Source: Sphingomicrobium sp. (GTDB lineage: Bacteria; Pseudomonadota; Alphaproteobacteria; Sphingomonadales; Sphingomonadaceae). From it: DNA of 54,030 nt. This document shows, one piece after another, positions 3,280 through 51,828 of the stretch. The notes beneath the pieces were generated by a model, which had not been told where the DNA came from, did not search any database, and saw only the letters and a program-made list of their open reading frames with translations. The stretch lies in the NCBI GenBank assembly GCA_040006255.1, contig JBDTXI010000142.1, positions 1 through 54,030 on the forward strand, given 5' to 3'. The position numbers and the translations under genes are program-made. Positions within the stretch are counted from its first letter, which is position 1. The number at the start of each line of letters is the position of its first letter.

Positions 3280-3309
3280 AATGTCTGCTTTCGACCCAAA
3301 GCGGACATT
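3280..3309 (+). repeat. 30-bp 12-6-12 site, copy 1
   Basis: AATGTCTGCTTT-CGACCC-AAAGCGGACATT; dyad extends to GCGCT/AGCGC. Confidence 0.9.
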
Positions 3310-3332
3310 AGCGCTGTATCCGCCGGCGGCGA

Positions 3333-3473
3333 GGCAGCAACGTATCTGTACCGCAGCCGGCGACTGTACCCGCACCGGCGACCTGGGCCATGATGCTCGT
3401 CGGTATTGGAGCCGTTGGCTATTCCATGCGCTTCGCCCAGGGGAAGCGCAGGGCGCCCCGCGCGACGGCCTAG
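3333..3473 (+). pseudogene. Orphan C-terminus of a PEPxxWA-CTERM-type surface protein
   Basis: Manual translation GSNVSVPQPATVPAPATWAMMLVGIGAVGYSMRFAQGKRR...*; in-frame stop at 3309-3311 and no start codon upstream of the motif. Confidence 0.7.
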
Positions 3474-3514
3474 TTTGCGTTCCGCCGCCGACCGAAACGA
3501 CATCGGCGGCGCCT

Positions 3515-3545
3515 CAGGTCTGCTTTCGATCCAAAAGCAGACATT
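3515..3545 (+). repeat. 30-bp site, copy 2 (one extra A)
   Basis: CAGGTCTGCTTT-CGATCC-AAAAGCAGACATT. Confidence 0.8.
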
Positions 3546-3574
3546 GCTTAGGATCGACGGGCCCGAAAGGAGGG

Positions 3575-7579: not shown

Positions 7580-8806
7580 TTATAGGGGACGAACGGATCG
7601 CGCGGATCGTCGATTTGGCCCTAAGTCCAAAGTCCGCTTTCGACCCATTTCAGAGATCAGCGAATCCTGCCTTGCCAGCGTCAGCCCGCCTTCGTCCAAC
7701 CTGGTCTGGCCCCCGCGTGATTGATGAGCGGGGCAGCGGGCCGAGCTTACGAATGCTCCGCGCCTCGGCGCCCGCAATCTCCGTTCGCTCGGCCCGGCGA
7801 CCACCGGCCAGCCGTGGCGCCATTCGATGCGGTCAATGAGCATCACTCGCCGACTGTTCAATTCGTCGACCGGCTTCTCGCGGGGACGGCGCTGGTCGAC
7901 CGCGTGATAGACGATCCAGTCGTGCCCGGCGGCGTCGGTGACGATCGAATTGTGGCCCGGAGCAATCCATTTCCCGCGCTTTTGCAGAATGATGCTGTGC
8001 GGTTTGTCCGTCGCATGCTCGAGCGTTTCGAACGGGCCCAGAGCGCTTTTCGATCGCGCCACCATCACCGCGTAATCGGCCTTGGGGCCGCAGCAATTGT
8101 CGCCCGAATAGAAGAGATAATAATAAGCGCCGCGGCGGATCAACCACGATCCCTCGACCAGCACCGGAAACGCGCCCTTCGCCGGGTTGGGCCAGACCAG
8201 ATTCCTGGGCGCCGAGCCGGGGGCGAACGCGAGCCTGTCGCGCGCCAGTTCCTGTACCTTCAGCGGGGCGAAGCCCGAACCCCAGTAGAGCAGGCGTTTG
8301 TGCGTCGCCGGATCGTCGAACGCCATCGGGTCGATGTTGATGAACCCCTCACCGCATTGCAGCGGGTGACCGATGTCGATGAACGGCCCCCGGGGCGACG
8401 CCGCCGTGGCGACCCCCAGGCAGAGTCCATGGCGCTCGTCCGCGGTGTCCGGCTTGGCCGAGAAATACATCACGTAGCGCGCGCCGTCGCGCTGCACGTG
8501 GGGCGCCCAGAAATCCTGCGTCGTGACGGCCCATGCCGGCTTGGCGGACAGCGCGTCCCCGAGGTACTTCCAGTGCGCGAGGTCGGGCGAGCGCGCGACC
8601 TGGATGTTGACCCAATGCCCGTCGCGCTGCGTCTGCGTCGCATAGCCGTAATAGAATCCGTCGGGCGCGCGGATGACTGTCGGGTCGGGGAAATCCGCAT
8701 CGATGACCGGATTGGCGTAAGTCGCCTTGGCCGCCGCGCCGACAGCCGCCGTCGTTCCGCTCGTAAGAGCGAGTGAGACGAGCCCAAGGGTGACGAACGC
8801 GCGCAT
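7580..8806 (-). CDS. Secreted glycoside hydrolase family 43 (arabinanase-like); C-terminus reads through site copy 3
   Basis: Signal peptide; NPVIDADFPDP, FWAPHV, NIDP, VEGSW, APGHNS. Confidence 0.9.
   Translation of the reverse strand: MRAFVTLGLVSLALTSGTTAAVGAAAKATYANPVIDADFPDPTVIRAPDGFYYGYATQTQRDGHWVNIQVARSPDLAHWKYLGDALSAKPAWAVTTQDFWAPHVQRDGARYVMYFSAKPDTADERHGLCLGVATAASPRGPFIDIGHPLQCGEGFINIDPMAFDDPATHKRLLYWGSGFAPLKVQELARDRLAFAPGSAPRNLVWPNPAKGAFPVLVEGSWLIRRGAYYYLFYSGDNCCGPKADYAVMVARSKSALGPFETLEHATDKPHSIILQKRGKWIAPGHNSIVTDAAGHDWIVYHAVDQRRPREKPVDELNSRRVMLIDRIEWRHGWPVVAGPSERRLRAPRRGAFVSSARCPAHQSRGGQTRLDEGGLTLARQDSLISEMGRKRTLDLGPNRRSARSVRPL
7629..7658 (+). repeat. 30-bp site, copy 3 (right arm degenerate)
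   Basis: AAAGTCCGCTTT-CGACCC-ATTTCAGAGATC. Confidence 0.75.
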
Positions 8807-8884
8807 GTTTGAAGCATAGTTTGCGCAAGACCGTTGCGGAAGCGCGTTCGTTCGTTAGGCTGCGCGCAGGAGAGGAAGGCGCCC

Positions 8885-9910
8885 GTGGCATTTCGCGCTA
8901 TCGTTCGACGTCTGGGATTGGCCGCGGCGGCGTTGCTCTGCCTCGGCGCGGCGGCGCCCGACGCTTCGTTCGTCCCGGTGTTCACCGAGAATTTCCCCGA
9001 CCCGTTCGTTCTACTTCACGACGGCCAGTTCATCGCTTACTCGACCAACGACGGTCCGAACGTGCCGGTGGCGACCTCGCGCGACCTCATCCACTGGAGC
9101 TTCGCGACGGACGCGCAGGGCAGAAAACGCGACGCGCTGCCGCGGTTGGGGAGCTGGGCGAAACCGGGCTTCACCTGGGCGCCGGAAGTGCTTGAGCTGA
9201 ACGGCCGCTTCCTACTGTATTATACCGCCAGCGATACGAAGAAGAACTCGCAATGTATCGGGGTCGCCGTGGCCGCCGATCCGCTCGGGCCGTTCGTCGA
9301 TTCCTCGCCCGAGCCGCTGGTGTGCCAGACCGACCTTGGCGGAAGCATCGACGCCGATGCGTTTCGCGACTCCGACGGCAGGCTCTTTCTCTACTTCAAG
9401 AACGACGGCAACCGCGTCGGCAAGCATAGCGCCATCTGGGCGCAGCAACTCGCGGCCGACGGGCTTTCCGTGTCCGGCCAGCCGGTCGAGCTGATTCACG
9501 ACGACAAGGGGTGGGAGCAGCGCCTGGTGGAAGCGCCGACCATGGTCCATTCGCCGGCCGGCTATGAACTGTTTTTCTCCGCCGCCTTTTTCGGCTGGAA
9601 CGAAGGCCAGGATCTGTCGCCCTACGCGATGGGCTATGCCGACTGCTCGGGCCCCCTTGGCCCGTGCACCAAGTCGCCGGCAAACCCGCTCCTGCACAGC
9701 TTCTACGACCGCCAGGCGGGATGCCTAAGCGGCCCCGGGCACCAGAGCATCTTCCAGGTCGGCGCGCGCAGTTTCATGAGCTTCCACGCGTGGCAGGCGT
9801 CGAGCGGCTGCCACAAGGTCGACGACAAGCGCTTCCTCTACATCGCGCCGATTTTCTGGAAGGACGGCAAGCCGCAGATCGGCGTCGGGCTAAGGCCGAC
9901 TGGACCTTAG
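8885..9910 (+). CDS. Secreted glycoside hydrolase family 43
   Basis: NFPDPFV, TWAPEV, GSIDAD, LVEAP, GPGHQS; likely GTG start after a GAGGAAGG RBS. Confidence 0.9.
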   Translation: MAFRAIVRRLGLAAAALLCLGAAAPDASFVPVFTENFPDPFVLLHDGQFIAYSTNDGPNVPVATSRDLIHWSFATDAQGRKRDALPRLGSWAKPGFTWAPEVLELNGRFLLYYTASDTKKNSQCIGVAVAADPLGPFVDSSPEPLVCQTDLGGSIDADAFRDSDGRLFLYFKNDGNRVGKHSAIWAQQLAADGLSVSGQPVELIHDDKGWEQRLVEAPTMVHSPAGYELFFSAAFFGWNEGQDLSPYAMGYADCSGPLGPCTKSPANPLLHSFYDRQAGCLSGPGHQSIFQVGARSFMSFHAWQASSGCHKVDDKRFLYIAPIFWKDGKPQIGVGLRPTGP

Positions 9911-9915
9911 CACGT

Positions 9916-11433
9916 CTACTTCCGCCGCACCTCAGCACGGCAGACCTGGGCGATGAAGTCCCCATGCGACGGCATCTGCTCGGCCATCCGGCGGTAGCTG
10001 ACCCGCATCTTGTCGAGCGCGTCGGCGGCGACAGCCCGATCGATCGCCATGGCCGCCGGCTCCGGCTCCTGCGGAACGACTCCCTGCCCGAGCAGGACAG
10101 CAACCCAGCTCGGCGCCCCAAACAGCTCTTGGCCGTCGCGGAACAACCGCCCTTTGGATCGCCACAGGTCGAGCTTCGACGCGAGCTTGTCCGGCAGGTC
10201 CATCGTCCGGCAGTAATTCCAGAATTCGGAATCGTCGCGGCGGGTGGCCTTGTAGTGGAGGATAATGAAGTCGCGGACGTCCTCGAACACGTCCTGCATC
10301 TGCCGGTTATATTCGTCGCGCTCGGCCGGATCGAAACGCCGGTCTGGGAATAGCGCGAGCAGCTTGCCGATCCCGCTCTGGACGAGGTGGATGCTGGTCG
10401 ATTCGAGCGGTTCGACGAAACCGCTCGAAAGGCCACGCGACACGACATTGGCGTTCCAAGCGAGCCGCCGCCGGCCAGCCGCAAAGGAAAGGTGCCGCGC
10501 GGGCGCCAGCGGTTCCCCGTCGAGATTGGCGAGCAGCAGCGCCTCGGCCTCGTCGCGGCCGAGATGGGCGCCCGAATAGACCAGCCCGTTGCCCATCCGG
10601 TGCTGGAGCGGGATGCGCCATTGCCAGCCGCTCGTGCGCGCGGTCGAGCGGGTGAAGGGGTCGGGCGGACCGGGGAGCTGGCAGGGCACGGCCACCGCGC
10701 GGTCGCACGGCAACCATTTGCCCCAATCGACCCAGCCGGTGCCCAGTTTCTCCTCGATCAGTAGGCCGCGAAAGCCGGAGCAGTCGATGAACAACTCGCC
10801 CTCGATGGTCTGGCCGCCGGCGAGCGTGACCGACCGCACATGACCAGTTCCGCTATCTAGGCTCGCCTCGACGATCTTGCCCTCGACGCGGCGCACGCTT
10901 TTGCCCTCGGCGTGGCGGCGCAGGAACTGCGCATAGAGCCCCGCATCCAGGTGGAATGCGTAGATCAGCTGGGACAGCGGCAGGCGCGCGCCCGGACCCG
11001 GGCGCGCAAAGCGCCCGAGCTCGGCGGCGACGGCGCTCATCGACCATTCGCGGATGTCCGGGAGGTCGCGGTGCTTCACCTCGCGCAAATAGAGCTGGTG
11101 AAAATGCACGCCGCTCAAGTCCGCTCCGTGAGCGCCAAAGGGGTGGAAATATCGCTCGCCGAGCGCGCCCCAATCGACGAATTCGATGCCGAGCTTGAAC
11201 GTACCCTGGGTCGCCGCGAGGAACTCGTCCTCGTTCAGGCCGAGCATGTCGTTGAAGGCGATGAGCGGGGGGATTGTCGCTTCGCCCACGCCGACCGTCC
11301 CGATCTCATCGGATTCGACGAGCACGATTTCGACCGACCCACTCGGGAGTGAAGCGGACAACGCGGCGGCGGCCATCCACCCAGCCGTGCCCCCGCCGAC
11401 GATGACAATTTTGCGGATCGCGTGTTCGCTCAT
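9916..11433 (-). CDS. Tryptophan halogenase-family flavin-dependent enzyme
   Basis: GGGTAGW, IGTVGVGEATIP, TFKLGIEF (catalytic Lys), WQWRIP, GFVEPLESTSIH. Confidence 0.93.
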   Translation of the reverse strand: MSEHAIRKIVIVGGGTAGWMAAAALSASLPSGSVEIVLVESDEIGTVGVGEATIPPLIAFNDMLGLNEDEFLAATQGTFKLGIEFVDWGALGERYFHPFGAHGADLSGVHFHQLYLREVKHRDLPDIREWSMSAVAAELGRFARPGPGARLPLSQLIYAFHLDAGLYAQFLRRHAEGKSVRRVEGKIVEASLDSGTGHVRSVTLAGGQTIEGELFIDCSGFRGLLIEEKLGTGWVDWGKWLPCDRAVAVPCQLPGPPDPFTRSTARTSGWQWRIPLQHRMGNGLVYSGAHLGRDEAEALLLANLDGEPLAPARHLSFAAGRRRLAWNANVVSRGLSSGFVEPLESTSIHLVQSGIGKLLALFPDRRFDPAERDEYNRQMQDVFEDVRDFIILHYKATRRDDSEFWNYCRTMDLPDKLASKLDLWRSKGRLFRDGQELFGAPSWVAVLLGQGVVPQEPEPAAMAIDRAVAADALDKMRVSYRRMAEQMPSHGDFIAQVCRAEVRRK

Positions 11434-11535
11434 GCAGCCATCCTGCACGGGCTACCGGTCGAGGCAAGCCTAGCCATGGAGGCAAGCGCCAAGGCCGAGG
11501 CACCAGTCCCCGGCCTTCTCGCATTCAGACGGCGC

Positions 11536-14500
11536 TTAACCGCGCTCCGGAGCCGCGGCTGGCGGCGGCGGTGGCGGAGGAGCGGCCGGCGAAGGCGCTT
11601 CCACGACCGGTGGCGGTGGTGGCGGCAGAGGAGCCGGCGGCGGTGGCGGAGCAGCCGTCGGAGCGCCACCCCCGAACCGGAACCGCACGCCAAGCGACAG
11701 GATGCGCTCGGTGTAGCGGGCGCGCCACGCGAACTTGACGCGCGAACTCGTGCCAGGATCGAGCGACGTGCCGGTTGGATCCATGCGGACCAGATCGACC
11801 TTCTGCGGCTTGTCGAGAATGTTCGTCCAGTCACCAAAGACCGTGAAGCGGTCGCGGAAGTTGTAACTTGCCGAAAGATCAAGCCGGCCGGGCTCATGGA
11901 TTTTCTGCCGCAGCACATAGGGATTATAAATGACCGCGCCCGCCTCGGGGCCAGTGGTGATGCTTGTGCAGCAGCTCGAGAAATCCGCGCGCTCCGACCA
12001 GTCTCCCCAGTATGGACTGCGCTTGTTGTAGGCGAGTCGAATTGAAATCGGGCCGTGCTCGAACATTCCGATGAGGTTGTACGAGAATCGCGATACGTTG
12101 AGCAGCGGCCGCGTGATCTGATCCGCGGGATCATTCGTCAGACGGGTGCACGCATCGGGATTGTTGAAATTGCAGGTTGGAATTGTGAATGGCCGCGGGA
12201 ATTTCGCCCCGTGGTTCAAGTAAGTGGCATTTGCCTGGATACCGAACGAGCGCAGCCAGGTCGGCGCCCCCTGGAAATCGAAAAAGGTGCTGATCTGGCC
12301 TTCAAATCCTTTGACGTGCCCCTTCCCCGAGTTGATCGGAGCATTGATGCGCAAGGGGAATCCGCCCTGCGTGCCTGCGGTGAAGGAAGACGGCGTCACG
12401 AACCCTTCGAACTCGTGGTCGAACGCCGCAAAGGCCGCGAAGCCCGTTGATGAGAAATAATATTCCAGGCTCGCGTCGTAATTGTTCGATTTGAGGTCTT
12501 TGAGGTCCGGATTACCCCCATTGGCGATCGTTTCGCAGAGGGCGTTCAAGCTGCTGCAGCCGGTCGGCGGCTGGCCGATGCTGATCGATGGACTGAGGTC
12601 GCCGAACTGCGGACGGGTGCGCGTCTTTGTTGCGGCGAGTCGCAATTGCAGCTCGCGCGTAAACTGGATTCGCGCATTGAAATTCGGCAGCCAGAATGTC
12701 TCTTTCTGGTTGGCGCTAACCGGATCCAGCGCGAAAGTGCCGCCCCCGAGATTCGTTCGCTGGGTACCGTTGATCTTGCGGTTGGCGTGCACGCCACGAA
12801 GTCCGAGTTGGCCATCGACGGCGATGCCGCCGAGGTTGAATGCCCAGTCGGCCTGGACATAAGCGGCAAGGCTCTTCTCGTTCGCGCGGAAGCCTGCGCT
12901 CGGGTCATAAGGCACGGGCGTTGTCGTCAGGAACCCGACGAACTGCCGCAACTCCGTCAGACTGTTGCGGATGCTCGAATAGGTCGGCGTGAGCCAGCTG
13001 GTGGGGAACGGCGCGATGTCGGCGCCCCTGAACCCCGGACTGAACAGCTGATAATCGAGCGGCACGGCGGTGATCGGCGTGCCATACACATCGGGGAAGC
13101 CTGGGAGGCGCGTCGGCGCGTCGCGGCTATAGCGACTGCCGTAAGAGCGGCTGGCGTCGCGATTGACGTAACGCACACCCCACCGGAGCTTCGGCAGGAA
13201 GTTCAGGCCTGTCTGGTAATTGAAGTCGACGCGACCCTGCCAGTCCTTGCCTGTCGCCCTCTGATTCTCCTCGAACAGCCCGCGGAAGGCGTAATTGTTC
13301 GGATCGGACGGGTTGAAGCCAACCAGCTCGAAGCTCGGGATGTCTCCCGGTGCGCCAATCGTGAAATTGACGGTCTGGCCGCAATTGAACGGATCATTAT
13401 TGCCGGGAACGCTCGGGCACAGCCGGTAGTCCACGCTCTCGGTCGAGCCCGTGAACGTGCTGTTGGTCCGCGCAAGGTCGGCCGTAATCTGCAGCGGGCC
13501 CGCATCGTAACGGCCGCCGGCGGCAATCTGATAAGTGTTCGTTTTGTTGTAGGTGCCGCCCTGCCAGCCTTCGCCGCGCCGCGGATTGAAAACGGTGCCG
13601 CTCTCGATCAGATTGGTTCCCGGCTGAAATTCCAGATTTGTGTACGATGCTCCGCCCCACAACGGTTGTTGGAATTGCCGGTCCTGGATCTCATGCCGGA
13701 AGCCCTGCCACAGCCCTTCGACGTAGAATTCGAGGTTGGGATTGGGTCGCCACTGAATGGCGCCGTTGAGCGACGGACGGGTGCGCGTCGCCTCGTCATA
13801 TTCGATGTACGGCCAGTCGGGGAAACGCCCGGCGTTCGGGCCTGGCGCCACGAAATAAGCGTTGGAGCTGATGGAATCGAGATAGTGCAGTCTGGTGTAT
13901 GAGAAATTGAGCAAGGCGCCCATTTCCCCGTCGCCGACCCGCCACCGGTCCGTGATCATGATGTTGCCGTTCGGGTTCCAGCCACCTGCCTGGCGCGGGT
14001 GAAGCTCCCAGAACGAGCCGTTGAGCTCGAAGCCCTTGAAGTCGAACGGGCGCCGTGAACGGACGTTGATGAGGCCCGTGATTCCGGGCTCGATCAGGTT
14101 CGCTGTCGACGTCTTGAACGCCTCGAGCGCCGCGATTGCGCCGGATGGGAAATCCTGCAGCGCGACCGAGCGCGTCTCCGCCGTGAAAATCTCGCGGCTA
14201 TTGTACGTGGTCGTATAGAACGCCCGGTCGAGGCCGCGTAGCAGTACGCGGTCGGCTTCGCCGCGCTCGCGCGTGACTTGGATGCCAGGGATGCGCGCAG
14301 CCGTATCCGACACCGCGATGTCGGGCAGCTTGCCGATGTCCGACGCGACGATCGCATCGACGATCTGGTCGCTGTTGCGCTTGACGTTGCGCGCCGACTG
14401 CAGCGAGCGGCGCATGCCGGTCACGACGATCGTCGAATTGTCGCTTCCGCCGGCAGCCGCGGGGCTCTGCGGAGCGTCGGCATTTTGCGCCGGTGTCGCG

Positions 14501-14628
14501 GGACTTTCTTGCGCCGTCGCGCCGGGGTCGAGAGCACCCGGCTGACCTTGCGCCAGAGCCGGATTGGCGCCGGCGAAAACCGCAACAAGCGCAGTCGTTG
14601 ACATGAGCAGAGTTGTTACGCGCCGCAT
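11536..14628 (-). CDS. TonB-dependent receptor with Pro-rich C-terminal tail
   Basis: Signal peptide, TIVVTG TonB-box region, DAIVASDIGKLPD plug, GGNPDLK, ...SLGVRFRF followed by a poly-Pro tail ending PERG. Confidence 0.95.
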   Translation of the reverse strand: MRRVTTLLMSTTALVAVFAGANPALAQGQPGALDPGATAQESPATPAQNADAPQSPAAAGGSDNSTIVVTGMRRSLQSARNVKRNSDQIVDAIVASDIGKLPDIAVSDTAARIPGIQVTRERGEADRVLLRGLDRAFYTTTYNSREIFTAETRSVALQDFPSGAIAALEAFKTSTANLIEPGITGLINVRSRRPFDFKGFELNGSFWELHPRQAGGWNPNGNIMITDRWRVGDGEMGALLNFSYTRLHYLDSISSNAYFVAPGPNAGRFPDWPYIEYDEATRTRPSLNGAIQWRPNPNLEFYVEGLWQGFRHEIQDRQFQQPLWGGASYTNLEFQPGTNLIESGTVFNPRRGEGWQGGTYNKTNTYQIAAGGRYDAGPLQITADLARTNSTFTGSTESVDYRLCPSVPGNNDPFNCGQTVNFTIGAPGDIPSFELVGFNPSDPNNYAFRGLFEENQRATGKDWQGRVDFNYQTGLNFLPKLRWGVRYVNRDASRSYGSRYSRDAPTRLPGFPDVYGTPITAVPLDYQLFSPGFRGADIAPFPTSWLTPTYSSIRNSLTELRQFVGFLTTTPVPYDPSAGFRANEKSLAAYVQADWAFNLGGIAVDGQLGLRGVHANRKINGTQRTNLGGGTFALDPVSANQKETFWLPNFNARIQFTRELQLRLAATKTRTRPQFGDLSPSISIGQPPTGCSSLNALCETIANGGNPDLKDLKSNNYDASLEYYFSSTGFAAFAAFDHEFEGFVTPSSFTAGTQGGFPLRINAPINSGKGHVKGFEGQISTFFDFQGAPTWLRSFGIQANATYLNHGAKFPRPFTIPTCNFNNPDACTRLTNDPADQITRPLLNVSRFSYNLIGMFEHGPISIRLAYNKRSPYWGDWSERADFSSCCTSITTGPEAGAVIYNPYVLRQKIHEPGRLDLSASYNFRDRFTVFGDWTNILDKPQKVDLVRMDPTGTSLDPGTSSRVKFAWRARYTERILSLGVRFRFGGGAPTAAPPPPPAPLPPPPPPVVEAPSPAAPPPPPPPAAAPERG

Positions 14629-14642
14629 GATGAGCCCCCTCT

Positions 14643-14686
14643 GGCGACAATCAGCCATTTCCCGTGGCTTACGACAATCCTACGAC
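14643..14686. promoter_or_regulatory. Possible operator repeats upstream of the TonB receptor
   Basis: CGACAATC occurs twice, and TTACGACAATCCTACGAC contains a TACGAC direct repeat. Confidence 0.25.
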
Positions 14687-14733
14687 GGCGGTTGATAAAC
14701 TTTCAAGCGGCAATCGAGCCACACTGAGCCAAG

Positions 14734-16041
14734 TTATTTTACTTCCGCGAGCAGCGCGTCGACACGGCGTTCAGCCTCCGCCAGCGCGCGCGGAACCGTC
14801 TTCTGCCCGGTGAACGCCGCGGCGGCTTCTTCGCCGACGATTCCTTCGATTGCATTTTGCCTTTGCACATAGCTCGGAAGCGGCCGTCCAATCGAAGCCA
14901 GCGGGGCAATGTCGGCGCGATGCGGAAGCGCCTTGAACCGCGGATCGTCGAGCACCGCTTTGAACGCGGGGATATGCCCGGTCCGCGCCCAGTCGAAATT
15001 GTGCGCGGCCATGAAACGGAAGAAGCGCGCGATCGCCTCGCGTTGCTTTGCGCTGCGCTTGCGCGCGGGGACGATCCAGCTGTGTCCGCTGACGAATTCG
15101 ACATGATTTCCCCACAGCCGCGGGTAGGGGAACACCGCATAGCTTTTGTACAGCGGCCGGCCCGGAGTTTCGGCTTCCTTTTGGAACGAGCCGATCATCC
15201 AAGTGCCCGTCGGATAAATGCCGCCCTCGCCACTCACGAACGCGGCGATCGCGCCCGGCGTGTCCATGTTCAGCGTGCCCAAGCGCTCGGCGTTGATGTG
15301 CGCAAAAAGGGTCGCGACCTGCACCCCCACCGGCGTGTTCAGGCGGATGTGCCTGGGGTCGGGGAACAGCACCGCGCCTTGCGCCATCATGTAGGTGTAG
15401 AGATTGCGCGCGGCGAACGCGGTGTCGCCGACGTTACTTTGAATGAGATAAGGCTTGCCGGTGCGCGCCTCGAATTGCCGCGCTTGGGCGATCAGCTCGT
15501 CCGCCGTGTTGGGCAGGATCGGCGTGCCGCCGCGCATCAATCCGGCCTTCGCGAACAACGCCGTATTGACGTGGAACAAGCCGCCGTGCGTGTCCCAGGG
15601 CAGGCCGTAAATGTGGCCGCCGATGGTCACACCTTGGCGCGCCGCCGGCGTGAAACTGTCGGGCGTGATTCCGGCCGCTGCGAGATAGGGATCGACCGCT
15701 TCAACCAGGCCCTTCGCGGCGTAATCGGAAATCACGCCTTCGTGCATGGTGACGAGATCGGGCGGATCGCGCGCAGCCATTTGCGCCGTCAGCTGCGGAT
15801 AGCCGGGCCAGGCGACGACGTTGACGTCGACATGTACGTCCGGGTTCTCGGCGTTGAAGCGAGCGATCATCGTAGTGATGATCCCGCATTCGCCTTCGGC
15901 TGCGGCAATGTCGGTGTTGCCGCCATATTCGGCGCCGCATTCACCGAAGAATCGCTGCAGGTAGAGGTGCGTTTTGTGGTCGGGCCGGGCACAACTCGCG
16001 AGCGCAACCGCGAGCAGCAATAGGCAAGCCGAGCGGATCAT
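14734..16041 (-). CDS. Carbohydrate ABC transporter substrate-binding lipoprotein
   Basis: Lipobox LASC; PPDLV, IYGLPWD; ATGA overlap with the permease. Confidence 0.88.
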   Translation of the reverse strand: MIRSACLLLLAVALASCARPDHKTHLYLQRFFGECGAEYGGNTDIAAAEGECGIITTMIARFNAENPDVHVDVNVVAWPGYPQLTAQMAARDPPDLVTMHEGVISDYAAKGLVEAVDPYLAAAGITPDSFTPAARQGVTIGGHIYGLPWDTHGGLFHVNTALFAKAGLMRGGTPILPNTADELIAQARQFEARTGKPYLIQSNVGDTAFAARNLYTYMMAQGAVLFPDPRHIRLNTPVGVQVATLFAHINAERLGTLNMDTPGAIAAFVSGEGGIYPTGTWMIGSFQKEAETPGRPLYKSYAVFPYPRLWGNHVEFVSGHSWIVPARKRSAKQREAIARFFRFMAAHNFDWARTGHIPAFKAVLDDPRFKALPHRADIAPLASIGRPLPSYVQRQNAIEGIVGEEAAAAFTGQKTVPRALAEAERRVDALLAEVK

Positions 16042-16874
16042 CGCACCGCGGTTCCCGCCATCGCTCGCACGATCTGCTTCTGGAACACGATGTAGACGAT
16101 GAAGATCGGGACCGACGCGAAGACCGCCTGCGCCATCAGGAACCCGAGCCCGCTGGTCTGCGCGTAATTCATCTGCGACGCGGCAAGGCCGACGGTCAAC
16201 GTGTACATTTCGCTGCGCGTGGCGGAGATTAGCGGCCACCAATAATCGTTCCAGCTGCCGAGGAAGGTGAACACGGCAAGCGTCGATTGGGCGGGCTTGG
16301 TCAGCGGGAGGATAATCTTCCAGAAGATCGTCCAGTGCGACGCCCCGTCAAGCATCGCCGCTTCATCCAGCTCGCGCGGAATGCCACGCATATAGGTGGT
16401 CATGAAGAACACGCCGAACGGGGCAATCAGCCCGGGCAGCATCAGCCCCGGATAGGTGTTGTGCAAATGCGCCCAGGCGAACAGCTGGTGCTGGGGCAGG
16501 ATCACCGCCTGGCTGGGCACGGCAAGGCCGAGCACGACGATGACGAACAGCGTGCGACGAAAGGGAAAGTCGAGGCGCGCGAAACCGAAACCGGCGAGGC
16601 TTGCGAGAATGAGCACGCCGGCGGTCGTTCCCAAAGCCACGATCGCGCTGTTCAACAGCCAGCGCATGGTCGAGCTGTTGCCGAAGATCGCTGCATAGTT
16701 CTGCAACGTGTAGGGCGGGTGCAGCGCGGCGCCGCTGTGCCCGACGAGCTCGCCGTTGTCTTTGAGCGAAAGCGCCAGAGTCCACAGCAAAGGCGCGACC
16801 ATGATCAGCGCGCCGATCGCTAGCGCGGCCCAACCCGCCGGCGTCAGTCGACCACGCTGGAGGCTAACGGCCAT
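16038..16874 (-). CDS. Carbohydrate ABC permease (MalG-like)
   Basis: IPRELDEAAMLDGAS EAA loop; FLGSWNDYWWP. Confidence 0.93.
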   Translation of the reverse strand: MAVSLQRGRLTPAGWAALAIGALIMVAPLLWTLALSLKDNGELVGHSGAALHPPYTLQNYAAIFGNSSTMRWLLNSAIVALGTTAGVLILASLAGFGFARLDFPFRRTLFVIVVLGLAVPSQAVILPQHQLFAWAHLHNTYPGLMLPGLIAPFGVFFMTTYMRGIPRELDEAAMLDGASHWTIFWKIILPLTKPAQSTLAVFTFLGSWNDYWWPLISATRSEMYTLTVGLAASQMNYAQTSGLGFLMAQAVFASVPIFIVYIVFQKQIVRAMAGTAVR

Positions 16875-17742
16875 TGTGCGCCGGATTGGTTCGGCCGGTC
16901 GCCCAATATTGGGTGATCGTGACGGCGAGGATGATCAGGAACAGCACCTCCGCCGCTGCACTGGCATAGCCCATCTCCCATTGCCCGAACGCCGTTTCGA
17001 ACAGGAACAGGACGGCGGTTCGCGAAGCGCCGCTCGGCCCGCCCGCGGTCAACAGCTGCGATTGTCCGAACAGCTGCAGTTGCGCCGCGGTCTGGAGCAT
17101 GACGACCAGGACCATGGTGCGCTTGAGCGACGGCAGGGTGATCCGCCAGAAGCTCGTCCACCGGCTCGCGTTGTCGAGCGCCGCCGCTTCGTACATGTCT
17201 TCGGGAATCTGCTGCAATCCGGCAAGGAACAGCAGCATTGGAAAACCGAGCGACCACCAGATCGTGGTGATCGCGATGGCCGGAAGAACGAGGTGCGAGT
17301 CGCTGAGGAACGGCAAGGGATCGCGTCCGAGCCATTTCCATGTTTCACCTAGCAGCCCCGCGTCCGGCGCCAGGACGAACCGCCAGATCAACGTCACGAT
17401 CGTCACCGACAACACCGCCGACGAGAAGAACAGCCCGCGGATGAGCGCCGCGCCCTTGCCGGCGGAGTTCAGCGCCAACGCCAGCAGCAAGGCGAGCACG
17501 GTGAGCGGCGGCACGATCATCAACGCGAGTTCGAACGTGTTGACCAGCGACGTCGCGAAAATGGGGTCCTGCGCCAGCCGCGCATAATTGGCGGCACCGA
17601 CGAAATGCCCGGCGCCGAACAAATCGACCTGGTTGAGACTGAGCCACAGGCCGCGGAAGACGGGAAAGATGAGGATGACCGCGTACAGCAGCAGGAACGG
17701 AGCGACGAACAACAGGCCGCGCCAGCTCCGGTCGCTGGTCAT
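16864..17742 (-). CDS. Carbohydrate ABC permease (MalF-like)
   Basis: FLAGLQQIPEDMYEAAALDNAS. Confidence 0.93.
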   Translation of the reverse strand: MTSDRSWRGLLFVAPFLLLYAVILIFPVFRGLWLSLNQVDLFGAGHFVGAANYARLAQDPIFATSLVNTFELALMIVPPLTVLALLLALALNSAGKGAALIRGLFFSSAVLSVTIVTLIWRFVLAPDAGLLGETWKWLGRDPLPFLSDSHLVLPAIAITTIWWSLGFPMLLFLAGLQQIPEDMYEAAALDNASRWTSFWRITLPSLKRTMVLVVMLQTAAQLQLFGQSQLLTAGGPSGASRTAVLFLFETAFGQWEMGYASAAAEVLFLIILAVTITQYWATGRTNPAHNGR

Positions 17743-18830
17743 GCTTCCGCCCGGTGATAGCCGGTGCCGTCACTGTCGAACACGTGGGCCGCGGCTCCGT
17801 CGATTTTGAGCGGGACTTCGTCGCCGATCCTGGTGCCGCTATCTCCCTCGTCTTCGGCGGTGACCGGCTGCCCGTCGGCGAGGCGCGCATAGATCAAAGT
17901 GCGCTCGCCGAGCCGCTCGACCAGCTCGACCTTGGCCATCGAGGCTGCCTTGCCGCGTTTCCCCACGCGCACCGCCTCGGGACGCAGACCGAGCTTCAGA
18001 TTGGCCCATTGCGGCAGTGCATTACGCGGGACTCGGGTTTCGACGATTGTGCCGTCGCCAAGCTTGAGGGTGGCAAATTCGGCGGTGTCCACAAGTTGCG
18101 CATGGGCCAGGGTCATCGCCGGCGATCCGACGAATTGCGCGACGAAGACGTTCGCCGGCCGCGTGTAGATTTCCATCGGGTGCCCGACTTGCTGAATCCG
18201 GCGGTCGTTCATCACCACGATGCGGTCGGCGAGAGTCATCGCCTCGGCCTGATCGTGCGTGACCATGATCACCGCGGCATCGACTTTCTGCTTCAATTGC
18301 GCGAGCTCGACCCGCGTGCGCAGCCGCAGCGCGGCGTCGAGATTCGACAGCGGTTCGTCGAGCAGGAACAGCTTGGGCTCCTTGACCAGGGCGCGGCCGA
18401 TGGCGACGCGCTGCTGCTGCCCGCCGGAAAGCTGGGCCGGCTTGCGCTCGAGCAGCGGCTCGATTTCGAGCACCCGCGCGGCATCGCCGATACGGCGCTC
18501 GATATCGTTCTTGGCGACGCGCGCGTTGCGCAGCCCGAAGGCCATGTTCTCGCGCACGCTCATGTGCGGATAGAGCGCGTAATGCTGGAATACCATTGCC
18601 ACTCCGCGCTCGCCCGGCGGCAGCTGGTCGATACGCCGGCCCTCGAGCCAGACTTCGCCGGAATCGGCGCTCTCGAGCCCGGCGATGATGCGCAGCAAAG
18701 TCGATTTCCCCGATCCGGAAGGGCCGAGGAACGCGATGAACTCGCGCGCTTCCACGGCGAGGCTGACATCGTCAAGCACCGGCGTCGCGCCAAAGCTCTT
18801 TCGTACGCCGTTCAGTTGCAGGCTCGCCAC
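17739..18830 (-). CDS. Sugar ABC ATP-binding protein (MalK/UgpC-like)
   Basis: [29 protein letters not shown]-terminal TOBE-like region. Confidence 0.95.
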
Positions 18831-19149: not shown

Positions 19150-19179
19150 GATGGCAGCTTTCCAGCCATTGCGGACATT
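19150..19179 (+). repeat. 30-bp site, copy 4
   Basis: GATGGCAGCTTT-CCAGCC-ATTGCGGACATT. Confidence 0.8.
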
Positions 19180-19261: not shown

Positions 19262-19567
19262 TTGCGTCGCGTTGTTGACGGCTATCGCAAAGGGGCACAT
19301 TCTGATTGCCCGCGGCGGGTTGCGGCCCGCCGTCCAAAGCCGGAGGGCCCGCCGCCATTGGGGTTTCTGTTTGGAGCTTGGGCGACTTTCTCACCCGCGT
19401 TCACCTTCGATGACTTTGATGACCATGGGAATCCGACGAAAGTTGGCGCCTATGCGGACAGAGAGCCGTTCACCCTTTACATGAAGGCCGGAACTGATGG
19501 TCCTACCATCCAGATGTTCATAGGGAGCTACGGGTTCCAAGACGTCACCCTGGGAGAGCGTTGCTAG
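19262..19567 (+). pseudogene. Degenerate hypothetical gene between sites 4 and 5
   Basis: 3' half is protein-like (AFTFDDFDDHGNPTKVGAYADREPFTLYMK...); a signal-like N-terminus lies in another frame; the TAG overlaps site 5. Confidence 0.4.
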
Positions 19568-19595
19568 CGGCAGCTTTCGACCCAAAGTAGACACT
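19566..19595 (+). repeat. 30-bp site, copy 5
   Basis: AGCGGCAGCTTT-CGACCC-AAAGTAGACACT, flanked by GCT/AGC. Confidence 0.85.
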
Positions 19596-19641: not shown

Positions 19642-19812
19642 GTGAAGAGTGCGCTCGGTCTACATCTACTGGCGATGACGGTGGCCTGTATCGGCTTGGC
19701 CGCATACCTGCTGACAAGACATTTCGGGTCGTTCCTGTATTTCGTCAGCGTGTTTGCGGCAATCGGCTTCGGGGGCAGAGCCTTTCACACGTGGTTGCGC
19801 ATTCGTGCCTAG
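19642..19812 (+). CDS. 56-aa two-TM membrane protein (absent from the ORF track)
   Basis: Manual translation MKSALGLHLLAMTVACIGLAAYLLTRHFGSFLYFVSVFAAIGFGGRAFHTWLRIRA*; stop 10 bp before site 6. Confidence 0.6.
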   Translation: MKSALGLHLLAMTVACIGLAAYLLTRHFGSFLYFVSVFAAIGFGGRAFHTWLRIRA

Positions 19813-20078: not shown

Positions 20079-20193
20079 GAAGGGGCTTGTCGACCCGATC
20101 AGCCTTAGCCGCAAGCAGGAGCGCCGTCTTGTTCGAAGGTCGTGGCTGTCGAGTCAGCTCATCCCTCGTCCACCAAGCGCAGACATTAAAGTT

Positions 20194-47847: not shown

Positions 47848-47942
47848 TGTCGCACACTAACGGTTGCAGCGGCGGCATCAACGTTGCTGCTGTTCTTCTT
47901 TCGGCAGCCATCCTACGCTCTTCTCGAGGCACGAGAGGGGAC

Positions 47943-50354
47943 ATGCGAATAGCAGCTGTTATTCTTGCAGCGGCAATGGCGACCGCAGCGCCGGTAAATG
48001 CCGAGCTCAGCCTCAATCGCGCCGGAATCAGCCATCTTCCGAATGGCCTGACCGTGATCATGCTGGAGGACCATAGTTTTCCGATCGTCAGCGTGCAGAT
48101 GCTCTACAAGAGCGGTTCGGCCGCCGAGACTACCGGAAAGACCGGTCTCGCCCATTTCCTCGAACATCTCGCCTTCCGGGCAAGCAAGAATTTTCCCAGC
48201 GAACGGGCAACCGAGCTGATCTACGACGCCGGCGGGGAATGGCATGGCTACACCGCGATGGATCAGACGACCTATTTCGCGACCATGCCCAGTGACGGCC
48301 TCGATCTGTTGCTCAAGATCGAAGCGGACAGGATGGCGCGGACGGTGATCAATCCCGCCTCGATCACGGCCGAGAAGGGCGCGGTGATTACCGAGCTGCA
48401 CAGTTACGAGAACGACCCGGCATCCGTCCTTCAGGACGCGGTCACAAGAACCGCGATCCAGGCGCATCCGTACGGGAGTCCGATGGCGGGTTACGTCAGC
48501 GATGTGCTGGACCTGACCGCGGAAGACGCGCGCGCATATTATGCAGGTCACTACGCGCCGGGGAATGCCGTCCTCGCGATCGTCGGTGACTTCGTCCCTG
48601 CGCGCGCGCGCGCGTTGGTTTCGCAAGATTTCGCCGATGTGCCGGCTAGGCCGGTCGCGGAGCCGAGCTTTACCGTCGAGCTGCCGCAACGTGGGCAACG
48701 GAAGATCCAATTGTCCGGCCCCGTGGACCGGCAATATTTCCTGCTCGCCTTTCCGTCCTGCGCTGCGTCCAGTCCGGACTTCCCGGCGTTTCTCGTACTT
48801 CAGGAAATTCTGTCCGGCGGCTCAGGCGTCAACCTGCACCAGAGCGGCTGGTCAGCGACTCAATCGCTTAAAGGCTCAATGCTGTTTGGAGCGGCTGGCG
48901 ACATCGCGACCTGGCTGCCACCTACGCATGAGCCGTTCCTTTTCACCATCGGCGGGTCGATCGGCTTGAACGCGGATCGCAGCGCGCTCGAGCGCGACCT
49001 TCAACAGCGCATCTCGAGGATCGCGGAACGCCCAACGGCGGAGCGGCGCCTTCAGCAGGCCAAGGCCGCGGTGGTTCGCGCGATCTCCGAGGATGTGCAG
49101 ACAACCGAGGATGCCGCTCACCAGCTCGCCTTTTTCGAGGGCGTTGACGCGCTTGATGCGCTGCTCGGCATGCCGCAGCACATAAGGGCCGTCAGCGCCG
49201 CGGACGTTCAACGCGTCGCTCGGGCATACCTGCGAACGGAAAGCTCTACCGTCGGTTGGATGGTTCCGGGGAGATTACCTTCCACACGGCCGGGTGCGGG
49301 CGACCCGCAGCCGGCAGCTGACCGGCTCGGAGCCGTCCCGGTCACTGTCGCGGCGGGCGAGCCGCAGCTGCGCCATCTTTCACGCGGGCTGCCGGCCATC
49401 GTTCAGTCAAACCCCCTTTCCGAAACGGCCACCGTCGAGTTGCTCTTGTCTGGAGCGATTGAAGCCGGGGCACATCCCGCGGAACTGCCGGGGCTCGATG
49501 CGGTCGTTCGCTCCGGCACGCCAGAACATCTCGACGCCCTGATCGTCCAATCCATTGCTGCGGCGCGTCAGCCGCAAACACGCTCAGAACAGGCGAGCAA
49601 AGATCCTGTAACGCGCCTGCAGGAGCTAATCTTCGCGCACACCGGTACTCACGCGACCACCGCACCGAAGCCGCTGGCCGTGATCGTCAGCGGGAAGGTT
49701 GAACCGGGGCAAGCCTTCGCTGTCCTCGAGCGGGCGCTTGGCCCGACTGCGCCGGGCAAGCTGGCCGGCAAAGCGCCGCCTGCCGCTTCCCCTACCCTGC
49801 GCCTGGTTCGCGAACGAATCTCCAAGCCGCTGTCGCAAGGCGCAATGGGCTATGTCGTCGAGGGTCCGCCGCTCGGCACTCGCCAGGCGCTGGCGTGGCA
49901 AATGCTGCTTTATGTCCTGACTCACGATTATTCGGGCCGGCTTGGCCGTTCGGCCATAACTGACAAGGGGATTGTCTATCACATCCACAGTGATTTTCGG
50001 ACGGACGGCGGACGCACGTGGGCGACAATCTCGACCGGCGTGGACCCCGACAAGGCGGATGCGATGGAAGCTGAGCTCAGAACTGAGCTCGCAAGACTCG
50101 CCAGCGACCCGCCCTCGCCTGGCGAAGTCGCCGCCGCACGAGATCACCTCCTCGGCCGAGATCTGACGGCCGCTCAAAGCAACGACGAATTGACTAGCAA
50201 GCTCGGTCGCGAATTCATCGAAGTCGGCGCCTTGCGCTCACATGAGCAGCTCCGCGCTGAACTGATGAGCATCTCACCCGCTGATCTTGCGGTGGCGACG
50301 CAAGCATTCGCCCGCGGAACGATCATCCGCGTCGACGTGCTTTCCCGGGACTGA
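47943..50354 (+). CDS. Secreted M16 (pitrilysin)-family zinc peptidase
   Basis: Signal peptide; LPNGLTV, TGLAHFLEH (HxxEH), EKGAVITE. Confidence 0.88.
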   Translation: MRIAAVILAAAMATAAPVNAELSLNRAGISHLPNGLTVIMLEDHSFPIVSVQMLYKSGSAAETTGKTGLAHFLEHLAFRASKNFPSERATELIYDAGGEWHGYTAMDQTTYFATMPSDGLDLLLKIEADRMARTVINPASITAEKGAVITELHSYENDPASVLQDAVTRTAIQAHPYGSPMAGYVSDVLDLTAEDARAYYAGHYAPGNAVLAIVGDFVPARARALVSQDFADVPARPVAEPSFTVELPQRGQRKIQLSGPVDRQYFLLAFPSCAASSPDFPAFLVLQEILSGGSGVNLHQSGWSATQSLKGSMLFGAAGDIATWLPPTHEPFLFTIGGSIGLNADRSALERDLQQRISRIAERPTAERRLQQAKAAVVRAISEDVQTTEDAAHQLAFFEGVDALDALLGMPQHIRAVSAADVQRVARAYLRTESSTVGWMVPGRLPSTRPGAGDPQPAADRLGAVPVTVAAGEPQLRHLSRGLPAIVQSNPLSETATVELLLSGAIEAGAHPAELPGLDAVVRSGTPEHLDALIVQSIAAARQPQTRSEQASKDPVTRLQELIFAHTGTHATTAPKPLAVIVSGKVEPGQAFAVLERALGPTAPGKLAGKAPPAASPTLRLVRERISKPLSQGAMGYVVEGPPLGTRQALAWQMLLYVLTHDYSGRLGRSAITDKGIVYHIHSDFRTDGGRTWATISTGVDPDKADAMEAELRTELARLASDPPSPGEVAAARDHLLGRDLTAAQSNDELTSKLGREFIEVGALRSHEQLRAELMSISPADLAVATQAFARGTIIRVDVLSRD

Positions 50355-50395
50355 CTGAGATGTAAGCCGAGCGGACCCTCTGTAATTTTCGGGTG

Positions 50396-51706
50396 CTATG
50401 TTGGAGCGGCTTTCTCCGCCGAGATCGCTACGCGCGAATTGAGGCGGCGCATGACGGTGCGAATGGCCAATCCCGCGGCGAGCAGTACCAAACACCAAAG
50501 GCTGGCTTCGAGGCCGACCCCGTAGATGGCAAAAGCAATGAACGTAACGGCGATCGCGATGATCGCGCGCGGGCCGAGCGTCGGGCTGAGCTTCCAGGCC
50601 GCTAATGCGCTGGCGAAATAAAGGACGATGATCGCCGCCGTCGACAGCAGGATGATGAAAGTGAACAAATTGGCTGTGGCGCGGCTGCTGTTGGCGAGCA
50701 GGAGGAGGACGGTGAGCCCGGATCCGACGAGTTGCGCCACGACCGGAGTGTTGACGCCGCGCGTTTTTGCCATGACGGCCGGCAGGTCGCCGCGCAGGGC
50801 CATGGCATAGCCGAGCTCGCCGGTGGCCAGTATCAGCCCATTCAGGCAACCGAACGCACTGATTGCGATTGTCAAAGCTGCGAGTGATGCGACGCCGTGT
50901 CCCCAGTTGGAGACCAGGGCATCAGCGTATGGCGCGGCCGAAGCCGCGACAACGTTAGCGGGCAAGAGCAGCTGGATGCCAGTCCCCGCGAGCAGGTACA
51001 GGATCACGACGAATGTCGTGCCGACAAACAATGCGCGCGGGATGGTGCGTGCGGGATGGGCGACTTTGCCGACGGGGGTCGTGGCGCCTTCGAAGCCCGT
51101 CAGTGCAAAGAAGGTCAATGCAGTGGCCGTGGCCACATTGGCGAAAGTGATCGCGAGTGGCGGCAGCGGCTCGTAGCTGGCGCCACTCGCACCGCGTTGA
51201 ACGAACAGCCAGATGACGGCCAGCAGCGGTAGGAGCTTAATGACTACGGTCACCACCGAAAGTCCGCCGGCCGCACGCACCCCAATCGCATTGACGGCGG
51301 TGAGCAGAAGAACGCAGCCGATGGAGACGGGAACGATGAGTCCCGGCCCGCCGAACTGCGATCCAGCGAATGACAGGGCCGATGCCGCACCGATGGCGAC
51401 CGACGCCTGCGCCGTCCAGTTGGAAACCCAGAACGCCCACGCGACGACGAACGCGATAGTCGGCCCGAATTCGCGCTCCATGTTGGCTTGGATGCCGTCG
51501 CCGCCAAGGCGCGACAATTGTGCCATAGCGAAGACGATGCACACCACACCAACGCCGCTGACCAACCAGCCGACCAAGACATTACGCCCAAGCGGCGCAA
51601 GGCTAACCGGGAGCATGAAAATTCCCGATCCGATAATCGTCCCGACCACCAGTGCAGTGGTCATCCAGATCCCGATCGTCTGCGGCTTTTCGCCATGTTT
51701 TGTCAT
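50396..51706 (-). CDS. APC-family amino acid/amine permease
   Basis: LVVGTIIGSGIFMLP, FFALTGFE, P.RTIPRA; about 12 TM segments. Confidence 0.92.
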   Translation of the reverse strand: MTKHGEKPQTIGIWMTTALVVGTIIGSGIFMLPVSLAPLGRNVLVGWLVSGVGVVCIVFAMAQLSRLGGDGIQANMEREFGPTIAFVVAWAFWVSNWTAQASVAIGAASALSFAGSQFGGPGLIVPVSIGCVLLLTAVNAIGVRAAGGLSVVTVVIKLLPLLAVIWLFVQRGASGASYEPLPPLAITFANVATATALTFFALTGFEGATTPVGKVAHPARTIPRALFVGTTFVVILYLLAGTGIQLLLPANVVAASAAPYADALVSNWGHGVASLAALTIAISAFGCLNGLILATGELGYAMALRGDLPAVMAKTRGVNTPVVAQLVGSGLTVLLLLANSSRATANLFTFIILLSTAAIIVLYFASALAAWKLSPTLGPRAIIAIAVTFIAFAIYGVGLEASLWCLVLLAAGLAIRTVMRRLNSRVAISAEKAAPT

Positions 51707-51798
51707 GCGCCCCCCAAGCAGCCTTGGTAGCCCCCTGGATCCGCCTAGTCGCTTCTTTCTCCGTATTGTAGCCTTGGCCTAGGACTGCTTTCTCACTC

Positions 51799-51828
51799 AA
51801 TGGCAGGAATGGGTCGAAACCGGACGTT
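51799..51828 (-). repeat. 30-bp site, copy 10 (opposite orientation)
   Basis: Reverse complement reads AACGTCCGGTTT-CGACCC-ATTCCTGCCATT. Confidence 0.8.

What the first reader, a model, noticed from the sequence alone, without database searches (positions are those of the whole stretch)
3280..51828. Candidate new cassette system: ten 12-6-12 recombination-like sites partition the island and abut a tyrosine recombinase
Seen: copies start at 3280, 3515, 7629, 19150, 19566, 19823, 20194, 22407, 23077 (all co-oriented) and 51799 (inverted). Consensus is AATGTCCGCTTT-[CGACCC/CCACCC]-AAAGCGGACATT, with arm variants ATGGCAGC and ATTGCGG. They fall at gene or module boundaries and enclose units from ~0.2 to ~11.5 kb (PEP-CTERM remnant; ufa-like cluster; GH43 locus; single genes). 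Copy 9 is 3 bp from the stop of a recombinase remnant. Known: inverted arms around a 6-8 bp asymmetric core is the layout of tyrosine recombinase sites (dif, loxP). Inference: a gene-capture array functionally like integrons or pdif modules, but with a different site and recombinase. I cannot verify from here whether it has been described.
Basis: partly seen in the sequence, partly recalled or inferred. Interest (0 to 1): 0.92.

Follow-up and report, generated by a model that had tools for sequence, protein, structure and literature searches.

The report
Polar gene-cassette arrays with mini recombinase
The short palindromic sites are real and mark the exact joints at which small gene cassettes have been copied and swapped within and between related genomes (likely Sphingomicrobium), probably by a very small tyrosine recombinase that is broken in this window, which would give a bacterial class reported to lack integrons its own gene-cassette system.

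Summary
All ten sites are at the stated places. This genome has 62; neighbours within 12 kb are co-oriented in 34 of 34 pairs, and 133 of 151 genus genomes carry them. They are exchange joints: five cassettes recur at 96-100% identity exactly site to site with unrelated flanks, and orthologous slots hold different cassettes. Arrays are polar (CGACCC tail in 54 of 68, CCACCC head in 74 of 85) and converge from both sides on a 203-211-residue tyrosine recombinase that has only the catalytic domain. The window holds the left arm (nine sites) and that gene's last 31 codons. Corrections: the tenth site is separate, the 28-kb block is not a cassette, and movement of the GH43 and TIR units is not shown. 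It is neither an integron nor a pdif array. That this enzyme acts on the sites is inferred; many site-rich genomes lack it. Ten literature searches found no description. The scan noted this recombinase family before on other DNA.

The parts
3280..3309 (+). Site 1, CGACCC core; outermost (tail) site of the left array
3312..3473 (+). PEP-CTERM-like gene tail between sites 1 and 2 (remnant)
   Evidence: translation; no Pfam hit
3515..3545 (+). Site 2, degenerate (CGATCC core, 1-base insertion)
   Evidence: leave-one-out 8.3 bits
3575..7500 (.). DUF1365, flavin oxidoreductase, DUF1295, DUF2177 and a HIG_1_N ORF; close copies (81-85%) lie in site arrays in three other genomes, with partly different ends
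7629..7658 (+). Site 3, CGACCC core, decayed right arm
7721..18830 (.). Two GH43 genes, Trp-halogenase family gene, TonB receptor, ABC transporter; lies between sites, movement as a unit not shown
19150..19179 (+). Site 4, CCAGCC core
19262..19567 (+). 101-aa ORF with no Pfam hit, ending at site 5
19566..19595 (+). Site 5, CGACCC core
19642..19812 (+). 56-aa hydrophobic ORF between sites 5 and 6
19823..19852 (+). Site 6, CCACCC core
19809..20114 (-). Small hydrophobic ORF between sites 6 and 7, reading through site 6
20194..20223 (+). Site 7, CGACCC core
20227..22197 (-). TIR-domain protein gene, 656 aa, stop 4 bases from site 7
22407..22436 (+). Site 8, CCACCC core; its right flank is shared with a site in G007 whose left flank is unrelated
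22444..22941 (-). PilZ-domain gene; 86% identical over 599 bases to a site-adjacent copy in G007:C67
23077..23105 (+). Site 9, CCACCC core, 1-base deletion; head of the array, 3 bases from the recombinase stop
23109..23207 (-). 3' remnant of the small tyrosine recombinase gene; the last 31 residues are identical to those of intact P0002
23212..23317 (.). Copy of a second repeat of about 90 bases that begins where recombinase homology stops; further copies at 35799-35877, 39249-39307, 51968-52133
50396..51706 (-). Amino-acid permease gene; an 89% copy in G070 has a site at its other end, in the same relative orientation
51799..51828 (-). Site 10, CGACCC core; separate from the left array; about 80 bases of one flank are shared with a site on contig C38

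Best explanation
The 30-base sites are the joints at which small gene cassettes have been exchanged in these genomes, and they are likely the target sites of a small tyrosine recombinase that has only a catalytic domain and whose gene sits where two arrays meet. Shown: cassette copies begin and end at sites; the left arm and the C/G base at core position 2 mostly stay with the DNA on their left and the right arm with the DNA on its right; arrays run from a CGACCC tail to a CCACCC head and point towards the recombinase gene from both sides. Inferred: the enzyme binds the 12-base arms of two co-oriented double-stranded sites and crosses over between site positions 15 and 19, cutting out a circle of right arm, gene and left arm, which goes back in at any other site in the direction set by the asymmetric core. 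A host-anchored CGACCC site that receives cassettes ending in CCACCC then gives the G-C-C-C order. The recombinase gene would itself be a module between two inward-pointing CCACCC sites that comes and goes, leaving orphan arrays. The window holds a left arm of nine sites and the last 31 codons of that gene.
For: Co-orientation in 34 of 34 neighbour pairs within 12 kb. Five cassette pairs of 237-699 bases are 96.2-100% identical between their sites and 15-43% identical in the 40 bases outside; four lie within one genome, one across genomes. Among 585 sites, 110 pairs share one flank and not the other, 1 pair shares both (79 of the 110 are recombinase-adjacent; the other 31 form 23 families). 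At two orthologous loci (flanks 92-94% identical) the host flank is kept up to the tail site and the cassette differs. Core position 2 is the same in 20 of 21 left-sharing pairs and 6 of 13 right-sharing pairs that are not recombinase-adjacent, against 0.49 at random. Polarity: tails G 54, C 14; heads C 74, G 9, other 2; heads away from a recombinase C 50 of 61. Around recombinases at 70% identity or more, 117 of 120 upstream and 92 of 93 downstream sites point at the gene; 53 of 55 adjacent sites have CCACCC. All 24 genomes with the close recombinase have sites, median 37, against medians of 9 and 10 otherwise. R54, K82, H151, R154 and Y186 are invariant and H177 nearly so in 30 sequences; the model (pLDDT 85.7) matches XerA, XerH and Cre. 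Near distant homologues, arm-like palindromes, often with other spacers, score above 20 in 8 of 118 windows against 0 of 590 shuffles.
Against: No assay and no circle has been seen; the laid contigs give only joints with 20-26-base sides at the sites, which site-to-site mis-mapping explains. 15 of 43 genomes at least 90% complete with no homologue at E 1e-30 still have 20 or more sites. G000 has no intact copy but is 70% complete. The protein lacks the core-binding domain that these enzymes usually have (PMC8138268 passages). One orthologous tail site differs at core position 2 although its left flank is shared. 38 of 166 cassette-sized steps end in a G site. Relatives lacking an array show no leftover site at three loci (G050, G079, G069, G139), so how arrays start is unexplained. 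In the window, GH43-locus homologues have no site in 8 of 9 loci and TIR homologues have a matching site in 1 of 18. The genomes are kin, so the counts are not independent.
Confidence: 0.68

Rival explanations
1. The sites are recombination joints, but another host enzyme (XerC/XerD or an unrecognised recombinase) acts on them, alone or by supplying the missing DNA-clamping function; the small recombinase is a passenger or one partner.
For: Near-complete genomes with 33-84 sites lack the close recombinase (G079, G060, G094, G095, G143, G165). The protein has no core-binding domain. G000 encodes XerC- and XerD-like proteins.
Against: The gene holds a unique place, between two inward-pointing CCACCC sites where the arrays flip. 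Distant homologues carry related arms with other spacers. The arms do not resemble XerC/XerD boxes (recalled, not tested).
Confidence: 0.14
2. CGACCC and CCACCC are two non-interchangeable addresses, and G-gene-C units are swapped by double crossover into G...C slots, without free single-site circles.
For: 15 of 23 complete two-site arrays are G then C; abutting doublets are C then G in 19 of 28; at locus L344 a G...C slot holds different cassettes in two genomes.
Against: The same cassette start follows a G site in one place and a C site in another in 7 of 13 pairs; C-to-C steps are common (57 of 166).
Confidence: 0.1
3. The sites are REP- or MITE-like repeats or terminator hairpins; genes are exchanged at them only through short homology.
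For: They are intergenic (9 of 62 inside long ORFs that cover 77% of the genome), reach 140 copies per genome and some fold well.
Against: Strict local co-orientation, G-to-C polarity and convergence on one gene. The arms hardly co-vary (complementarity 0-3 points above shuffled pairing) and 36% of sites fold weaker than -4 kcal/mol; the unpaired core is 97-98% conserved at five of six positions. No Rfam match.
Confidence: 0.06

Closest known systems
Integrons (IntI, attI, attC) and CALINs (PMC4889954, passages read)
   Same: Arrays of mostly one-gene cassettes with co-oriented sites, a tyrosine recombinase gene at the array, many orphan arrays, and small or unknown cargo such as GNAT, SnoaL/DUF4440 and an Arr-family gene.
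   Different: 30-base 12-6-12 sites with a conserved core and little hairpin co-variation; crossover in the middle of the site; a 203-residue enzyme; arrays on both sides of the gene; longest ORFs in both orientations (108 with, 61 against, 57 unclear); found in Alphaproteobacteria, where that survey found none in 243 genomes.
Acinetobacter pdif/dif modules, XerC/XerD (PMC12907356, abstract and introduction read)
   Same: Short arm-core-arm sites with a 6-base centre that bound gene modules and form multi-module arrays on chromosomes.
   Different: Arms of 12 bases of another sequence; a dedicated small recombinase gene within the array, below the XerC and XerD cut-offs; long co-oriented runs, whereas pdif sites are recalled to alternate in orientation.
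FimB/FimE-type invertases (recalled; NCBIfam 'tyrosine-type DNA invertase')
   Same: About 200 residues, catalytic domain only.
   Different: Only weak hits (20 bits against a cut-off of 222); those enzymes flip one promoter switch and build no cassette arrays.
Inverted repeats at the variable locus of P2-like coliphages (Nilsson et al. 2004)
   Same: Title proposes site-specific recombination at a variable gene locus (citation seen in PMC9122126).
   Different: The paper is not held, so its sites could not be compared; no P2-like phage encodes this recombinase among the 3 phage records hit. An overlap with this family is not excluded.

Membership tests
Integron | IntI integrase (core-binding plus catalytic domain with the IntI-specific insertion) | tested here: not met
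   P0002 is 203 aa, catalytic domain only; no IntI model among its 8 NCBIfam hits
Integron | attC sites recognised as folded single strands, crossover at the 3' end of the site (recalled) | tested here: not met
   Sites are 30-36 bases, arms barely co-vary, many fold weakly; right arm follows the right flank, so crossover is central. An attC covariance model was not run.
Integron | One attI site and Pc promoter next to the integrase, one array | tested here: inconclusive
   Two opposed sites flank the gene and arrays lie on both sides; promoters were not scanned
Integron | Array of mobile one-gene cassettes bounded by co-oriented sites | tested here: met
pdif/dif modules | 28-base site, 11-6-11, with XerC and XerD boxes | tested here: not met
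   12-6-12 with other arms (definition); XerC/XerD box sequences are recalled
pdif/dif modules | Recombined by host XerC/XerD | not testable with these tools
   Needs an assay; see first rival
pdif/dif modules | Gene modules bounded by sites and reused in other contexts | tested here: met
Tyrosine recombinase superfamily | R-K-H-R-H/W-Y catalytic residues and catalytic fold | tested here: met
   for intact homologues; the window remnant keeps only the last H and the Y
Tyrosine recombinase superfamily | Core-binding domain before the catalytic domain | tested here: not met
   About 20 low-confidence residues precede the first helix; top profile hits are mostly about 210 aa
REP/MITE repeats | Scattered, either orientation, conserved as hairpins or with terminal repeats and target duplications | tested here: not met
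   target duplications were looked at by eye at one locus only

The most novel reading that the evidence does not exclude
A third natural gene-cassette platform beside integrons and pdif modules: a clamp-less tyrosine recombinase of about 205 residues that is enough on its own to excise and insert cassettes at a 30-base site, tolerates a mismatch in the core, builds polar arrays on both sides of its own mobile gene, and serves a dozen orphan arrays per chromosome, doing in sphingomonads what integrons do in other Proteobacteria.
Probability: 0.4. Interest if true: 0.92.

Novelty: new variant of a known kind. Interest (0 to 1): 0.8.

Why it matters
A survey of 243 alphaproteobacterial genomes found no integrons and called that 'extremely puzzling' (PMC4889954, passages). 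A different cassette system in 133 of 151 genomes of one sphingomonad genus, with exact site matches also in Lysobacter, Dyella, Caulobacter and Brevundimonas, offers a testable part-answer. It would also explain where much strain-variable small-gene content comes from, including an Arr-family gene in one array. A working 200-residue recombinase with a 30-base site would be about two-thirds the size of Cre and would test what the core-binding domain is for.

Tried and rejected
Motif search in papers returned only primer matches in the 30 of 141 papers listed. The 31-residue remnant found nothing in plasmids; the full protein found 408 records. Contigs of four runs from one study, likely the source of the window, were laid on 6000-24000: they match the window over 18934-21042 and 22564-23942, and their joints at the sites are too short to count as excisions. 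'Many address cores in fixed order', as in some earlier scan notes on other systems, was tested with the core masked and rejected: 56 of 61 sites in G000 and 227 of 243 in other loci are within one base of C[C/G]ACCC. 'The 23-52 kb block is a cassette' was rejected: G042 has its first genes near nrdB without sites and G070 has a later part at the same locus in another order. No conserved motif separates G-site from C-site flanks after allowing for many tests, though a subset of G sites shares a CGTTCAGC stretch. The second repeat was not found in 60 other genus genomes. No tRNA or Rfam family in the window. The top plasmid homologue (Bosea, 68%) has no site of this exact type within 4 kb. No complex prediction was run.
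Full report
Observation. The window is contig C142 of G000, a 1.9-Mb assembly in 160 contigs, about 70% complete. The genus is likely Sphingomicrobium, from the label of a same-genus protein and from the named genomes that hold the site. Nine score 25-43 bits when left out of the matrix; 3515 scores 8.3 because of a 1-base insertion. Shuffled and Markov-random genomes give no hit above 18 and 16 bits. With the core masked, the spacer is 6 (106 hits against 10 or fewer for 4, 5, 7, 8), and 56 of 61 such hits have a core within one base of C[C/G]ACCC. Site 9 ends 3 bases from the stop of a recombinase remnant whose last 31 residues equal those of an intact 203-residue protein, P0002, in G007.

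The sites are a genome-wide family in local arrays. G000 has 62 sites on 26 contigs; neighbours within 12 kb are co-oriented in 34 of 34 pairs, and the two discordant pairs are 29 kb apart. Nine of 62 lie inside long ORFs that cover 77% of the genome. Three single-contig relatives have 73-94 matches; those listed for G096 and G089 fall into about a dozen clusters each; the reversed pattern gives 0. 133 of 151 genus genomes have matches, 0-140 each. An exact pattern hit 130 stretches in the eighth of GTDB scanned, mostly sphingomonads among the 80 listed, also Lysobacter, Noviluteimonas, Dyella, Caulobacter, Brevundimonas and Phenylobacterium.

The sites are exchange joints. Among 585 distinct sites, 110 pairs share a 67-base flank on one side and not the other, and 1 pair shares both (first pass 64 and 1). 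Of the 110, 79 are recombinase-adjacent; the other 31 form 23 families. Because intergenic DNA diverges anyway, the stronger evidence is five cassette pairs, picked from those junction lists, that are 96.2-100% identical over 237-699 bases from site to site and 15-43% identical in the 40 bases outside: three within G096, one within G089, one between G072 and G096. Of five orthologous loci examined, two keep the host flank up to the tail site in G096 and G072 (92-94% identical) and carry different cassettes; at three loci relatives have no array and no leftover site (G050, G079, G069, G139); one locus gave no clear comparison. In the window, site 8 shares its right flank and the PilZ gene with a site in G007 (86% over 599 bases) and not its left flank; that homology ends 65 bases short of site 9. 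Site 10 shares one flank with a site on C38.

Where the crossover lies. The C/G base at site position 14 is the same in 19 of 19 left-sharing pairs and 6 of 12 right-sharing pairs away from recombinases, against 0.49 at random; left arms follow left flanks (0.84 against 0.77) and right arms follow right flanks (0.85 against 0.73). Adding the orthologous loci gives 20 of 21 and 6 of 13, with one clear exception. Positions 13 and 15-18 are 97-98% fixed, so the crossover cannot be placed more finely than between 15 and 19. The arms hardly co-vary and 36% of sites fold weaker than -4 kcal/mol, which points to binding sites on double-stranded DNA and away from hairpins.

Polarity and the recombinase. 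In 100 arrays of two or more sites, tails are CGACCC in 54 of 68 and heads CCACCC in 74 of 85 (ends near a sequence edge were left out); away from recombinases heads are CCACCC in 50 of 61, and 15 of 23 complete two-site arrays are G then C. Abutting doublets 34-38 bases apart are mostly C then G (19 of 28). Segments have a median of 533 bases. Around recombinases at 70% identity or more to P0002, 37 of 38 loci have sites, and 117 of 120 upstream and 92 of 93 downstream sites point towards the gene; 9 of 63 more distant loci have sites. 53 of 55 adjacent sites are CCACCC. The catalytic R54, K82, H151, R154 and Y186 are invariant in 30 sequences (four candidate rows were left out). The model (pLDDT 85.7) matches the XerA, XerH, Cre and Tn1549 integrase structures and has no core-binding domain. 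P0002 is below every NCBIfam cut-off. The family is large: 47 of 151 genus genomes, 408 plasmid records, 1935 clusters at E 1e-30 or better, 3 phage records. Near homologues below 65% identity, arm-like palindromes score above 20 in 8 of 118 windows against 0 of 590 shuffles, several with 5-, 7- or 8-base spacers.

Against the enzyme assignment. All 24 genomes with the close recombinase have sites (median 37), but 15 of 43 near-complete genomes with no homologue have 20 or more (counts typed). Either the gene passes through and leaves orphan arrays, as CALINs lack IntI, or another enzyme acts. No circle was seen: contigs from four runs of one study, likely the window's source, give only 20-26-base joints at the sites.

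The window, corrected. Sites 1-9 form a left arm from a CGACCC tail to a CCACCC head at the recombinase stop. Recombinase homology ends at 23207, where a second repeat of about 90 bases begins; that repeat occurs only on this contig and in none of 60 relatives. From there to 51798 there is no site. The genes there are nutrient-uptake and catabolic genes, parts of which lie near nrdB in G042 without sites and in G070 in another order. Site 10 is best read as a separate site beside the permease. Close copies (81-85%) of the DUF1365 cluster lie in arrays in G108, G070 and G153, two with a site at the same point after DUF2177 that the window lacks; two more (77-82%) lie on short site-free contigs; of seven distant copies one has a site nearby. 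GH43-locus homologues have no site in 8 of 9 loci with 1.5-kb flanks, and TIR homologues at 66-76% have a matching site in 1 of 18, so those two units are not shown to move. Of 122 inter-site ORFs from other genomes, the 79 longer ones were scanned: 33 hit Pfam (hydrolases, TIR-TPR, GNAT, GST, SnoaL/DUF4440, PEP-CTERM, Arr) and 46 did not; some of the latter may be wrong-frame picks.

Mechanism. Most likely the small recombinase recombines two co-oriented sites within the right part of the core, releasing a circle of right arm, gene and left arm that re-enters at another site in the direction fixed by the core. A host-anchored G site receiving C-ended cassettes yields G-C-C-C. The joints, polarity and geometry are shown; the enzyme, the circles and the founding of arrays are inferred or open. 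Confidence 0.68 for the whole, above 0.9 that the sites are recombination joints.

Known systems. It works like an integron or pdif array and fails the defining tests of both. Seen: passages of PMC8138268 (12 of 16 places) and PMC4889954 (12 of 24), abstract and introduction of PMC12907356, three passages of PMC9122126; Nilsson et al. 2004 is not held. Searches (listings only) showed no description of this system; subscription papers are outside the library and no supplements were read, so a listing of the family in the datasets of PMC8138268 is possible. Earlier notes of this scan describe the same small recombinase family on other DNA; they are unchecked and not counted as support. G020 and G121 are marked unpublished: G020 is one of the 24 close-recombinase genomes, G121 one of the 23 distant-only genomes, and loci L004 and L036 enter the site sets; G097, also unpublished, is one count.

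Verdict. Real, and very probably an undescribed cassette system; new variant of a known kind; interest 0.8.

Noticed in passing
window 23212-23317, 35799-35877, 39249-39307, 51968-52133: A second repeat family of about 90 bases with a TGTTGCA-C-TGCAACA palindrome, tandem at 52 kb, found only on this contig; one copy starts where the recombinase gene is cut, and the outer copies (92% over 116 bases) bracket 28.8 kb. Role unexplained.
   Followed up: partly
L341:3004-3391; L334:17184-17569; G051:C1:864562-864643: Convergent CCACCC pairs with no recombinase between them; in L341 a tRNA-Arg gene lies between the two.
   Followed up: no
L350:3571-3644, L079:7835-7911, L340:6920-6995, L347:4170-4253: Several array tails lie within 45-650 bases of a tRNA gene; at tRNA-Gly a relative has the empty allele with no site.
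   Followed up: partly
L077:8899, L337:2468 and 15924, L341:4487, L105:2707, L340:6661: A subset of CGACCC sites share an upstream CGTTCAGC stretch preceded by a looser arm-like palindrome with a long spacer; may bear on how arrays are founded.
   Followed up: no
L071:2207-2620: An Arr-family (rifampin ADP-ribosyltransferase) gene fills a site-bounded cassette in G050.
   Followed up: no
L076:13980-15728: A large serine recombinase gene lies between two sites in a G089 array.
   Followed up: no
window 19824-20108 and 3281 onward: The site read from its ATG gives spurious frames beginning MSAFHPLRT or MSAFDPKRT, which gene callers may annotate as proteins.
   Followed up: no
window 23352-27095 and 32948-35014: Three beta-lactamase-fold serine hydrolase genes with DUF1611, a TonB receptor, a peptide transporter and an enolase-family epimerase: likely a peptide-scavenging cluster.
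   Followed up: no
L080:5509, L081:3395, L082:9744, L076:18097: Site pairs only 24-26 bases apart that share an arm.
   Followed up: no
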